64,000 nucleotides of DNA from an uncultured Gemmatimonadales bacterium (GTDB lineage: Bacteria > Gemmatimonadota > Gemmatimonadetes > Gemmatimonadales > GWC2-71-9). Below are positions 50,953-54,443 of this stretch, one piece after another (the stretch's first letter is position 1; each line of letters starts with the position of its first letter). A program made the position numbers and the translations under genes. Where the stretch lies: assembly GCA_963844035.1 (NCBI GenBank), contig CAWJMT010000005.1:203336-267335 (forward strand), given 5' to 3'. The notes under the pieces were generated by a model. That model worked only from the letters and a program-made list of their open reading frames with translations, made no database searches and was not told the origin of the DNA.

Positions 50953-51105
50953 GCGAGAATCCCGCAGGCCGAGGAAGCTGCACACTCGCCGCTCCGCTAC
51001 TTCATGTGCCAGTAGTACTTTTGGGAGGGGTGGTCAGGCGTCATTGCTGCCCGCCCAACCGACCTCCTCACTAACCGTCTGACCGCCTAACCGCCTAGTT
51101 GTTAG

Positions 51106-51134
51106 TTGACACCGCAGCGCTCAGTTGCTACCGT
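51106..51134 (+). promoter_or_regulatory. sigma70 promoter of the aroF leader
   Basis: TTGACA-17 nt-TACCGT, ATG 6 nt downstream. Confidence 0.85.
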
Positions 51135-51140
51135 ACTCCC

Positions 51141-51230
51141 ATGCCGCGCACGAACTATTATTTCGGGTTTTTTTGGTTCGGCCCCACGGGGTCGTCAGGT
51201 TCGTGCGCACGGGCGGCAGTGACCGATTGA
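51141..51230 (+). CDS. aromatic-amino-acid attenuator leader peptide (29 aa, not in ORF track)
   Basis: MPRTNYYFGFFWFGPTGSSGSCARAAVTD*: 7 aromatic codons in 8. Confidence 0.85.
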   Translation: MPRTNYYFGFFWFGPTGSSGSCARAAVTD

Positions 51231-51254
51231 ACTGACCCGAGAGCGAAATGAACC

Positions 51255-51289
51255 GACGGCCCCGGCAAACTCCCGGGGCCGTTCGTTTT
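51255..51289 (+). terminator. attenuator terminator hairpin
   Basis: GACGGCCCCGG-CAAACTC-CCGGGGCCGTT-CGTTTT. Confidence 0.85.
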
Positions 51290-51313
51290 CCGGACCGTCT
51301 TGAGGAGCAGCCC

Positions 51314-52354
51314 ATGATCATCGTCCTACGTCCGCACGTTACGGAGGAAGAGCTCACCCGCGTGGTGGAACAGGTGCGCGCGCTCGGGCTCACGCCGCAT
51401 GTGTCGCGCGGCGCGACGCGCACCATCGTCGGATGCATCGGCGACGAGGACCGGCTGCGCGAGGTCCCGCTGATGTCCTTCCCGGCGGTCGAATCGGTCC
51501 TGCCGATCGAAAAGGCGTACAAGCTGGCGGCCCGGGAGTTCGCGGCCGGGGACACGCTGGTCCAGCTGGGTCAGGCCGCCATCGGCGACGGGGCCGTGCA
51601 CGTGATTGCCGGGCCGTGCTCCGTCGAAGGTCCCGAGATGCTGCTGCAGACCGCCGAATCGGTGAAAGCGGCCGGGGCGATTGGGTTACGGGGCGGCGCC
51701 TTCAAGCCGCGCACCTCGCCCTACTCGTTCCATGGGCTGGGCAGCGGCGCGCTCGACATGCTCGCCGACGTGCGGGCGGCCACGGGCCTGCCGGTGATCA
51801 CCGAGACGCTCGATACGCGCCACGTCGCCGCGGTCGCCGCCAAGGTCGACTGCGTGCAGGTGGGCGCGCGCAACATGCAGAACTTCGCGCTGCTCAACGA
51901 AGTGGGATCGTGCGGCAAGCCGGTGCTGCTCAAGCGGGGCATGTCGGCGACCCTCGAAGACCTGCTGCTCGCCGCCGAGTACATCCTGGCGCGGGGCAAC
52001 TCCCAGGTAATGCTGTGCGAGCGGGGCATCCGCACCTTCGACCGCACCCTGCGCAACACCCTCGACATCAACGCCGTGCCCTATCTCAAGCGTGAGACGC
52101 ACCTGCCGGTGCTCGTGGATCCGAGTCACGCGTGCGGGCGGCGTGACCTGGTCCCCGCGCTCGCGCTCGCGGCGATCTGCGCCGGCGCGGATGGTCTGGT
52201 GATCGAGGTGCACCCCGATCCCGATCATGCGCTCTCCGACGGGGACCAGTCGATGTCGCTCGAGGGGTTCGCCGAGCTGATGGAGCGGGTGCGGGACGTG
52301 GCGCAGGCGCTGGGGCGCGGCGTGGCGGAGACGTCGACGCCGGCGCGGCGCTAG
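51314..52354 (+). CDS. aroF: 3-deoxy-7-phosphoheptulonate (DAHP) synthase, type I-beta with N-terminal regulatory domain
   Basis: GAGGAG SD; IAGPCSVE, GGAFKPRTSPYSF, GARNMQNF, CERGIRTF, DPSH. Confidence 0.95.
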   Translation: MIIVLRPHVTEEELTRVVEQVRALGLTPHVSRGATRTIVGCIGDEDRLREVPLMSFPAVESVLPIEKAYKLAAREFAAGDTLVQLGQAAIGDGAVHVIAGPCSVEGPEMLLQTAESVKAAGAIGLRGGAFKPRTSPYSFHGLGSGALDMLADVRAATGLPVITETLDTRHVAAVAAKVDCVQVGARNMQNFALLNEVGSCGKPVLLKRGMSATLEDLLLAAEYILARGNSQVMLCERGIRTFDRTLRNTLDINAVPYLKRETHLPVLVDPSHACGRRDLVPALALAAICAGADGLVIEVHPDPDHALSDGDQSMSLEGFAELMERVRDVAQALGRGVAETSTPARR

Positions 52355-52382
52355 ACGGCGCCTAGACGGCGCCTAGACGGCG
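52351..52382. repeat. 11-nt tandem repeat CTAGACGGCGC x3 between convergent genes
   Basis: Three units; first holds the aroF stop, last holds the pilT stop. Confidence 0.8.
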
Positions 52383-53968
52383 AGAGAAAGCTTGTGGCCC
52401 TTGGCCTTGAGTGACGCGACCAGGCCCGCCTTCTCCATCGACCGCATGTAGGCCTCGTCGGGCGTGACGAGCTTCTTCTCCACCAGCTCGAGCAGCGCGT
52501 CGTTCAACGTGATCATGCCGATCTGCTTGCTGGTCTGCATGATCGACGGGATCTGGAAGATCTTCGACTCACGGATCAGGTTGGAGACCGCGGGCGTGGT
52601 GATCAGGATCTCGCGCGCCGCGACCCGTCCGCCGCCGATCTTCTTGCACAGCGTCTGACACGACCACCCCCCGCAGCGATTCCGACAGCATCACGCGGAT
52701 CTGTGACTGGCGGTCGGCCGGGAACTGATCGATGATGCGGTCCACGGTGGACGCCGCCGTGGTGGTGTGCAGCGTGCCGAACACGAGGTGCCCCGTCTCC
52801 GCCGTTTCGATCGCGATCGCGATCGTCTCGAGGTCGCGCATCTCGCCCACCAGCACGATATCCGGATCTTCGCGCAGCGCGGCGCGCAGCGCCGACTTGA
52901 AGCTGTCGGTGTGCAGCCCCACCTGGCGCTGCGTGATCACGCACTTCTTGTTCTCGTGCACGAACTCGATCGGATCTTCGATCGTGATGATGTGGTCGGT
53001 GCGCGTGCGGTTGATGAGGTCGATCAGACCGCTCAAGCGTGGTGGACTTCCCCGAGCCGGTCGGGCCCGTCACCAGCACCAGCCCCTTGGTGAGGTAGCA
53101 CAGCGCCTGCACTTCCTTCGTGATCTCGAGCTGGTCGGCCGTCATCACCTGCGCCGGGATCACCCGGAGCACCGCCAAGGGACCCTTGCGGTCGCGGCCC
53201 GCGTTGACGCGGAACCGCGCCAGGCCCGCCACCTCGTACGCGAAGTCCGCGTCGCCGGTGTTGTTCCAGGAGGTGCGGTCCCGGTCCGCCATGATGGAGA
53301 GCAGGGTCATCTCGAGCTGGTCAGCCGTGATCGCCGGCATGGCGGGCTGGCGCTTCATTTCGCCGTGCGTGCGGAAGATCGGCGGCTCGCCCACCCGCAG
53401 GTGCAGGTCGGAGGATCCCGATGACACGAGCAGTTTGAGCAGCTCACCCAGGGCTCGCGCCGCGAGCTTGAAATCGCTAGCTGCCGAACTCGGCCGGGAT
53501 CGCCGCCGGGGGCGGCGCGGAGGCCTTCGTCTCCGCCGCCGCGCGCTGCGCGGCCTTGACCGCCTGCGGGATCGCGCTCTCGGGCATAGGGGAGGACGCC
53601 ATCGTGGCAGCCCCTTTGGCTGGTGCGCGCCCCATCGACGCCACCGCCGCGGCCGCGGCGGTGCGCTCTCCCGGCGAGATCACCGCGGTGAGGCGCCCAT
53701 TGTCGGGCACCACGCGCACCTGCACGAGGCCCCGGTCGGCCACGTAATCGAACGCCGTCTCGGCCATCTTGTCGATCTGATCGGCGGAATCGGATGGCGC
53801 GACCTCGACGAGCAGCGAGTAGATGTGCTTGTCGGTGAGCGGCTGGCGGCTCACTTTGCGCGGCTTGCCGTCCTTCACCATCGTCACCGGCTCGTCCGGC
53901 AGCAAGTACAGCTGGTCGCCCCCTTCACGCAGGAGCACGTCCACGAACGGATCGAGGCTGGTCGGCAT
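52373..53968 (-). CDS. pilT: type IV pilus retraction ATPase with an extra N-terminal PilT-like domain (frameshifted)
   Basis: SDLHL, GPTGSGKSTT, TIEDPIE, ALREDPD, GEMRDLET, TGHLVFGTLHT. Confidence 0.9.
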
Positions 53969-53972
53969 TAGG

Positions 53973-54443
53973 CTAGTCCAGGGGGCGGGCGTACAACACA
54001 TGCGCCCGATTGATGTAGTGCGTGGCCGCGTGCGTCCAGACCGCGAAGAACCGATCCTGCGTGGAGTTGAGATAGTCGAGCAGGCGCGCCTGTTCGGGCG
54101 GCAGCTCGGCGCTCGCCCAGCCGTTGAACATTGTTCCCCCGGCAAGCACCACTTCGATTCCCAGCAGCTTCGCCGCCGAGAGGCGGGCGGGATCGGCCAT
54201 CGGCGCCTGCCGGTCCAGGGTCACCGCCATGGTGTGCAGCTTCGCGATGAGCATCACGTCCGTGCCGGGCTCAGGCCGGAAGGCGAAGAACGCCTGCGGC
54301 CGGTTCAGCATCTCGAGCACGGATTCCGAGCCTTCGTGCTGAGGGACCCGCTCCATGACGTACAGCTCCCCAGCATGGGCCGCGCCCTCGGTCAGGAGGA
54401 CGCGGGTCGGGACGGCGGTGCGGGGAAGGGCGAAGACTGACAC
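53973..54443 (-). CDS. hypothetical protein with two similar halves
   Basis: GTG start 7 nt after TAAGTT; halves EMLNRPQAFF and DYLNSTQDRFF. Confidence 0.65.
   Translation of the reverse strand: MSVFALPRTAVPTRVLLTEGAAHAGELYVMERVPQHEGSESVLEMLNRPQAFFAFRPEPGTDVMLIAKLHTMAVTLDRQAPMADPARLSAAKLLGIEVVLAGGTMFNGWASAELPPEQARLLDYLNSTQDRFFAVWTHAATHYINRAHVLYARPLD

What the first reader, a model, noticed from the sequence alone, without database searches (positions are those of the whole stretch)
51106..51313. Leaderless triple-aromatic (Tyr/Phe/Trp) attenuator controlling DAHP synthase
Seen: TTGACA-17-TACCGT promoter with ATG 6 nt later and no SD; uORF MPRTN-YYFGFFWF-GPTGSSGSCARAAVTD*. Mutually exclusive helices: 1:2 GCGCACGAAC (51146-55) with GTTCGTGCGC (51199-208); 2:3 antiterminator GGGGTCGTCAGGTTCGT (51188-204) with ATGAACCGACGGCCCC (51248-63); 3:4 terminator 51255-89. 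Known: ribosome-mediated attenuation (trpL, pheL) usually senses one amino acid. Inference: stalling on any aromatic codon masks segment 1 and allows read-through, so the first shikimate step integrates all three end products through a leaderless uORF.
Basis: partly seen in the sequence, partly recalled or inferred. Interest (0 to 1): 0.85.

Follow-up and report, generated by a model that had tools for sequence, protein, structure and literature searches.

The report
Leaderless aromatic attenuator before DAHP synthase
A 29-codon mini-gene packed with tyrosine, phenylalanine and tryptophan codons, followed by a predicted switchable transcription stop signal, sits before the first enzyme of aromatic amino-acid synthesis and likely turns it on when these amino acids run short; the device is textbook, but across related bacteria its codon mix follows the genes it precedes.

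Summary
It is very likely a classical ribosome-mediated transcription attenuator on a leaderless transcript, upstream of a stand-alone DAHP synthase I-beta in a Gemmatimonadota genome. One rule (aromatic uORF plus terminator) finds it before 141 of 170 related loci and 0 of 22 housekeeping paralogues. The reading frame is conserved in relatives, so the 7-T run is probably right. Correction: folding suggests the switch is mainly the ribosome covering segment 2 once it passes the last aromatic codon, not the masking of segment 1. The Trp codon tracks operon content: 51 of 61 leaders without chorismate mutase downstream have one, against 3 of 66 with it; all 10 trp-operon leaders have Trp and none Tyr. 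After tree correction this is only borderline (median p 0.06). Precedents exist: C. glutamicum aroR-aroF (Phe-Tyr-Phe, reported to respond to Phe only) and leaderless multi-amino-acid ilvL. The scan noted this type in 8 other genomes. A new variant of a known kind; three-way sensing is untested.

The parts
51106..51111 (+). -35 box of a predicted sigma-70-type promoter (TTGACA)
   Evidence: invariant in 8 of 8 aligned leaders; a TTG-led box at 16-19 nt spacing in 130 of 141 leaders (promoter presence was part of the picking score)
51129..51134 (+). -10 box; predicted transcription start at 51141, the A of the uORF start codon (leaderless)
   Evidence: spacing to the start codon is 5-8 nt in 110 of 130 promoter-bearing leaders; start site inferred, not mapped
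51141..51230 (+). 29-codon leader peptide frame (uORF)
   Evidence: most aromatic-dense of 20,628 short frames in the genome; most insertions/deletions among close relatives keep the frame
51156..51179 (+). control codons: 2 Tyr, 4 Phe, 1 Trp within 8 codons
   Evidence: both synonymous codons used across the family, TAC 209/TAT 161, TTT 141/TTC 110
51146..51155 (+). segment 1, 5' arm of the predicted protector (anti-antiterminator) helix
   Evidence: pairing kept with changed letters in close relatives, weaker family-wide
   Evidence: minimum-energy folds; CCC and G-run invariant
51188..51208 (+). segment 2: pairs with segment 1 (51199-208) or segment 3 (51188-204)
51248..51265 (+). segment 3: antiterminator partner and terminator 5' arm
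51255..51289 (+). predicted intrinsic terminator (11-bp stem, 7-nt loop, interrupted T tail)
   Evidence: not called on this strand by the consensus scanner
51302..51307 (+). Shine-Dalgarno sequence of the enzyme gene
51314..52354 (+). DAHP synthase type I-beta with N-terminal regulatory domain, stand-alone gene converging on a pilT-like gene
   Evidence: NCBIfam PRK08673 over cut-off; full-length match to PDB 1RZM/3PG9, E 2e-108

Best explanation
This is likely a ribosome-mediated transcription attenuator on a predicted leaderless mRNA that would raise transcription of a stand-alone DAHP synthase gene when charged Tyr-, Phe- or Trp-tRNA runs short. Inferred steps: RNA polymerase starts at the A of the uORF ATG and a ribosome loads there without a Shine-Dalgarno sequence. 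With ample aromatic amino acids the ribosome crosses codons 6-13, covers segment 2 (which begins 14 nt after the first base of the Trp codon), the 3:4 hairpin forms and transcription stops near 51289. A ribosome waiting on any of codons 6-12 leaves segment 2 free and blocks its upstream partners, so the 16-bp 2:3 helix takes the terminator's 5' arm and transcription runs on. Without translation, or behind the ribosome, 1:2 and the local hairpin would hold segment 2 and favour termination. Shown: the sequence elements, their conservation and their pairing potential. Inferred: start site, translation, termination and response.
For: Conservation: 141 of 170 related loci pass one rule, 0 of 22 housekeeping paralogues; all 4 genus orthologues with an intact upstream region keep Tyr, Phe and Trp codons. 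Antiterminator: own duplex mean -18.7 against -13.7 shuffled and -15.3 with other leaders' partners; better than the shuffle mean in 137 of 141, than 95 of 100 shuffles in 86 of 141, than cross pairs in 128 of 141; core letters differ by clade with matching partners. Geometry: over 95 leaders mean P(antiterminator) is 0.92-0.94 with the ribosome 2-8 codons before the last control codon and 0.46 two codons after it; the Trp codon lies in the permissive zone in 44 of 44 leaders at footprints 10 and 12, 41 of 44 at 14. No SD: SD-like 4-mer before 3 of 141 uORFs against 78 of 138 enzyme genes. Codon mix follows the operon: Trp in 43 of 53 stand-alone, 8 of 8 prephenate-dehydratase-only, 3 of 66 chorismate-mutase-containing, 10 of 10 trp-operon leaders (Tyr 0 of 10); in the later batch alone 19 of 23 against 2 of 23. 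The genome has genes of all three branches, no leader before its trpD-C-B-A genes, and no TrpR or TRAP found (genome 84% complete).
Against: No experiment, and no RNA ends: the runs are contigs only. In full-length equilibrium the Trp codon is borderline in this leader (P(terminator) 0.44-1.0 at W12 against at most 0.1 at Y6-F8), and across 95 leaders the terminator still wins in 79 with the ribosome on the control codons, so the model needs folding order. In the snapshot model with upstream RNA left free, 2:3 returns when the ribosome sits at the stop codon. The Trp-operon link is borderline after tree correction: 9 independent pairs, 5.0 same way, 0.3 opposite, 3.6 no difference, median p 0.0625 (p 0.125 in the first batch). 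One Trp codon against six Tyr/Phe codons should give a weaker response (PMC1183508 passage). C. glutamicum aroR has a Tyr codon yet reportedly ignores Tyr. A genome-wide excess of leaderless starts was not seen (9 against 7 and 7 sites).
Confidence: 0.62

Rival explanations
1. Same attenuator, but in practice a Phe/Tyr sensor: the single Trp codon sits at the edge of the switching zone and adds little.
For: W12 is borderline in full equilibrium; only 1 Trp codon; precedent of a silent Tyr codon in C. glutamicum aroR; tree-corrected association not significant.
Against: The Trp codon is invariant in 8 of 8 aligned close relatives while neighbouring codons change; it appears in several separate stand-alone lineages nested among chorismate-mutase loci (tree); it is in the permissive zone of the snapshot model.
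Confidence: 0.25
2. The leader mainly senses decoding speed of U-starting codons (MiaA/MiaB-type tRNA modification, for example under iron stress) or general translation rate rather than amino-acid supply.
For: All control codons start with U. Loss of MiaA overrides trp attenuation in P. aeruginosa (PMC13434334, abstract). Non-aromatic U-starting codons are 40 of 290 inside clusters against 219 of 2614 outside.
Against: It does not explain why Trp-only, Tyr-only and Phe-rich clusters match the downstream genes. Ser inside clusters uses AGY (24) nearly as often as TCN (30). It is better seen as a modifier of the same device.
Confidence: 0.07
3. Control is at translation of the enzyme gene (hiding the Shine-Dalgarno), as in mycobacterial polycysteine leaders, or by a nascent-peptide stall as in TnaC.
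For: The T tail here is interrupted and was not called by the scanner; the SD is partly paired in all equilibrium folds.
Against: 126 of 141 leaders... more exactly 127 of 141 have at least 5 T in 8 after the stem (4 were required), and the stem ends 17-117 nt before the start codon; SD pairing did not open in the stalled state; peptide sequence is not conserved beyond residue class.
Confidence: 0.05
4. Chance arrangement or assembly artefact (the window has frameshift-like breaks nearby).
For: The neighbouring pilT-like gene is split across frames.
Confidence: 0.01

Closest known systems
Corynebacterium glutamicum aroR-aroF attenuator (Mentz 2013, PMC4046766, passages read; Neshat 2014, PMID 24910972, not held, seen only as summarised in PMC11802643 and PMC7356990 passages)
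   Same: Leader peptide with mixed aromatic codons directly upstream of a DAHP synthase gene; ribosome-stalling attenuation.
   Different: aroR has Phe-Tyr-Phe, no Trp, and one review says only Phe limitation induces it (another paper words it as control by Phe and Tyr). Different phylum; I did not compare sequences, so homology is not tested. Here there are 7 aromatic codons including Trp and a type I-beta enzyme.
Leaderless actinobacterial attenuators ilvL, leuL, trpL (Streptomyces lividans, PMC8079986 passages; C. diphtheriae ilvB leader, PMC5784534 passages; M. tuberculosis ilvB1 uORF, PMC13236596 passages)
   Same: Leader peptide translated from the transcript's first base; ilvL combines three amino acids (Leu, Val, Ile) to control a shared first step; terminator/antiterminator switch.
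   Different: Branched-chain rather than aromatic codons; start sites there are mapped, here only predicted.
Enterobacterial trpL and pheL attenuators (general knowledge; PMC11802643 passage; PMC3082878 listing and passages)
   Same: Four-segment 1:2 / 2:3 / 3:4 logic with control codons just upstream of segment 2.
   Different: Single amino acid, SD-led leader (recalled), branch-specific operons; no Rfam model matches this leader.

Membership tests
Ribosome-mediated (classical) transcription attenuators | Short uORF enriched in codons for the pathway's end products | tested here: met
Ribosome-mediated (classical) transcription attenuators | Intrinsic terminator between uORF and structural gene | tested here: met
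   hairpin -23.8 kcal/mol with T tail, conserved; consensus scanner missed it on the + strand
Ribosome-mediated (classical) transcription attenuators | Mutually exclusive antiterminator whose 5' arm lies just after the control codons | tested here: met
Ribosome-mediated (classical) transcription attenuators | Protector/pause helix 1:2 | tested here: inconclusive
   strong in this leader (0 of 100 shuffles) but only 28 of 139 leaders beat 95 of 100 shuffles and 81 of 139 beat cross pairs; pausing not testable
Ribosome-mediated (classical) transcription attenuators | Termination falls when the cognate charged tRNA is limiting | not testable with these tools
   needs starvation and reporter experiments
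Leaderless leader-peptide attenuators | Transcript starts at the uORF start codon; no SD | tested here: inconclusive
   promoter spacing and SD absence fit; start site not mapped, only contig-type RNA runs found
C. glutamicum aroR family | Sequence or structure homology to aroR | not tested
   aroR sequence not fetched; works like it, membership not claimed
Rfam leader families (trp, phe, his, leu, thr leaders, T-box) | Match to the covariance model | tested here: not met
   no match at gathering score; only three chance-level hits, E 1.2-6.7

The most novel reading that the evidence does not exclude
Gemmatimonadota use one re-programmable leaderless attenuator before DAHP synthase whose codon mix is rewritten whenever the operon changes: Trp-only before trp operons, Tyr/Phe without Trp when chorismate mutase is co-transcribed, and a true three-input Tyr/Phe/Trp sensor when the enzyme stands alone, as here. 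Single Trp codons would have been gained or lost repeatedly with chorismate mutase, a natural series for how a ribosome-read sensor evolves OR-logic.
Probability: 0.5. Interest if true: 0.6.

Novelty: new variant of a known kind. Interest (0 to 1): 0.4.

Why it matters
It adds an uncatalogued, phylum-wide leader RNA family (no Rfam model) and predicts how an abundant, mostly uncultured soil phylum controls entry to the shikimate pathway without TrpR or TRAP (not found in this 84% complete genome). The many natural variants make two questions testable: whether one Trp codon among Tyr/Phe codons gives a real third input, and how fast sensor codons follow operon rearrangement. The mechanism itself, its leaderless form and multi-amino-acid sensing are all known, and the scan has noted the type repeatedly, so surprise is moderate.

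Tried and rejected
Consensus promoter/terminator scan: no promoter and no + strand terminator called; judged a threshold effect. Rfam: nothing. Self-BLAST of the leader: no second copy in the genome. A first leader rule with a T-tail pattern missed clear cases and was replaced by a hairpin rule; that rule still misses some visible leaders (for example L185, L105, L081). Full-length equilibrium folding shows a switch in this leader but not in most relatives, so it was not used as support. Genome-wide test for leaderless starts: no excess. Sequencing runs: best share 0.21, all contigs; near-identical RNA-library contigs cover parts of the enzyme gene but cannot show starts, ends or levels. Class II DAHP synthase, TrpR, TRAP: not found in this genome. 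Neshat 2014 is not held. A search for the Thermotoga regulatory-site residues found nothing useful, so the idea that the enzyme is feedback-inhibited by Tyr/Phe rests on recall plus similarity to 1RZM/3PG9. A T-box-like motif before one DAHP synthase (L017) was not confirmed by Rfam. Literature: 'Gemmatimona' + 'attenuator' + 'leader peptide' gave 0 papers; searches showed no Tyr/Phe/Trp triple leader in listings or passages read. Comparative papers by Vitreschak 2004 and the Lyubetsky group (recalled, not seen) may hold such predictions; subscription papers are mostly outside the library.

Full report
Observation. The enzyme is a DAHP synthase I-beta matching PDB 1RZM/3PG9 over its full length. 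It stands alone, converging on a pilT-like gene. A second, 50% identical copy lies elsewhere in the genome and has no leader (L112). The uORF is the most aromatic-dense of 20,628 short ATG frames in the genome. Against this, the consensus scanner called neither the promoter nor the + strand terminator, whole-leader folding is only mildly unusual (z -2.0), and Rfam has no model.

Organism. Gemmatimonadota by inference: the best named relatives of the enzyme are titled Gemmatimonadaceae, Longimicrobiales and Gemmatimonadales, and the genome behind a locus titled Gemmatimonadetes holds a 79% identical orthologue.

Conservation. All four genus orthologues with an intact upstream region keep promoter, uORF with Tyr, Phe and Trp codons, and terminator; two more genus genomes had truncated copies. 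I then collected loci from family, order and phylum searches, chosen by similarity to this enzyme and spread over genera by hand, plus ten named loci of the 80 that looked Gemmatimonadota-like or leader-bearing. Most other loci, from other phyla, showed no such leader by eye and were left out of the counts. One rule (14-40 codons, aromatic cluster, terminator hairpin with T tail) passed 95 of 111 loci and 0 of 22 housekeeping paralogues, then 46 of 59 further loci, 141 of 170 in all, the window included. The regulated copy is patchy: 36 of 251 family genomes had a match at the threshold used, which is not proof of absence in the rest.

Translation and the T run. Most insertions and deletions among eight aligned leaders keep the frame, and the Trp codon is invariant. 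Both synonymous Tyr and Phe codons are used; Tyr codons number 379 in frame against 11 and 52 in the other frames (partly circular, since frames were picked for aromatics). The frame after the T run matches relatives, and a relative's contig spans the run with no gap. Reads of this strain were not available.

Leaderless. The ATG lies at the expected +1. A promoter pattern precedes 130 of 141 leaders, 92 of them at 6 or 7 nt; an SD-like word precedes 3 of 141 uORFs but 78 of 138 enzyme genes. The promoter was part of the picking score and no start site was mapped, so this stays a prediction.

The switch. Segment 2 is a near-copy of the terminator's 3' arm, and its letters change by clade together with the terminator. 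Own pairs beat shuffles in 137 of 141 and other leaders' partners in 128 of 141. With a ribosome modelled as a block and the transcript cut at the terminator loop, the antiterminator is available until the last control codon and drops within two codons after it, in this leader and on average over 95 leaders. So the geometry is tuned to the 3' edge of the aromatic cluster. The 1:2 helix is strong here but uneven across the family, and a local hairpin at 51179-94 adds to it. Limits: in full equilibrium this leader switches cleanly at Y6-F8 (and at F10 for footprints up to 13) but is borderline at W12, and most relatives show no switch; these are thermodynamic proxies of a kinetic process.

Is the Trp codon meaningful? 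Downstream genes were identified by Pfam and then by tblastn and a small HMM. Trp codons occur in the cluster of 43 of 53 stand-alone loci, 8 of 8 loci followed by prephenate dehydratase only, 3 of 66 loci with chorismate mutase, and 10 of 10 trp-operon loci, none of which has Tyr (2 truncated and 2 unclassified loci apart). All three residues occur in 29 of 53 stand-alone leaders. I formed this idea on the first batch; the later batch gave 19 of 23 against 2 of 23. The logic is sensible (inference): chorismate mutase drains chorismate away from Trp, so Trp starvation should not induce it. Kin are not independent: on the enzyme tree of 125 loci, 9 independent pairs gave 5.0 concordant, 0.3 discordant, 3.6 unchanged, median p 0.0625. 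Suggestive, not proven. In this genome the trpD-C-B-A genes have no leader, all three branches are encoded, and TrpR and TRAP were not found (84% complete).

Known systems. C. glutamicum has a Phe-Tyr-Phe leader before its DAHP synthase aroF (PMC4046766, passages); a review says Phe but not Tyr limitation induces it (PMC11802643, passages), while PMC7356990 words it as control by both (passages). The primary paper was not held. Leaderless leaders, including the three-amino-acid ilvL, are mapped in Streptomyces and Corynebacterium (PMC8079986, PMC5784534, passages), and a multi-codon ilvB1 attenuator is described in M. tuberculosis (PMC13236596, passages). Predicted attenuators before aroA/aroF-tyrA operons are listed in PMC1173090 and PMC2659441 (passages). 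From bioRxiv 10.1101/834739 I saw the title, start of abstract and a null term search. My searches showed no Gemmatimonadota report and no Tyr/Phe/Trp triple leader; no supplements were read, and they or subscription papers could hold one. The scan's own notes list the same type in 8 other genomes, 3 of them Gemmatimonadota; these were leads, not support.

Verdict. Real, conserved, almost certainly a classical attenuator (about 0.9), likely with three inputs (about 0.6). New variant of a known kind; interest 0.4.

Noticed in passing
window 51071-51097 and 52346-52382: Short tandem repeats flank the gene: an 8-nt unit (3.4 copies) just upstream of the promoter and an 11-nt unit (3.5 copies) across the stop codon; the upstream stretch has short matches at many places in the genome.
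   Followed up: partly
window 52380-54150 (- strand): The convergent pilT-like ATPase gene is split over several frames, suggesting assembly frameshifts in this window.
   Followed up: no
L017 (G003, same genus), upstream of a 54% identical DAHP synthase: A T-box-like antiterminator motif and terminator instead of a leader peptide; Rfam did not confirm a T-box at gathering score.
   Followed up: partly
L085, L081: Outside the phylum: a Tyr/Trp/Phe leader before DAHP synthase in a Phycisphaerales record, and a Trp-Trp-Trp leader before a DAHP synthase-trpEG operon in Ferrimonas.
   Followed up: partly
L125, L131: Two close orthologues in the family lack the leader; L125 has a -10-like box near the enzyme start, L131 keeps G/C-rich remnants. 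Possible losses of attenuation.
   Followed up: no
L159, L160, L162: The same leader type precedes DAHP synthases lacking the usual N-terminal regulatory domain match.
   Followed up: no
L222 7750-10829 (G000:C12): A HEAT-repeat gene and an HD-domain gene sit between trpB and trpA in the genome's trp cluster; the two chorismate-binding genes lie on other contigs.
   Followed up: no
L155, L126: nadA (and nadC in L155) directly follow the attenuated DAHP synthase gene on the same strand; co-transcription not examined.
   Followed up: no
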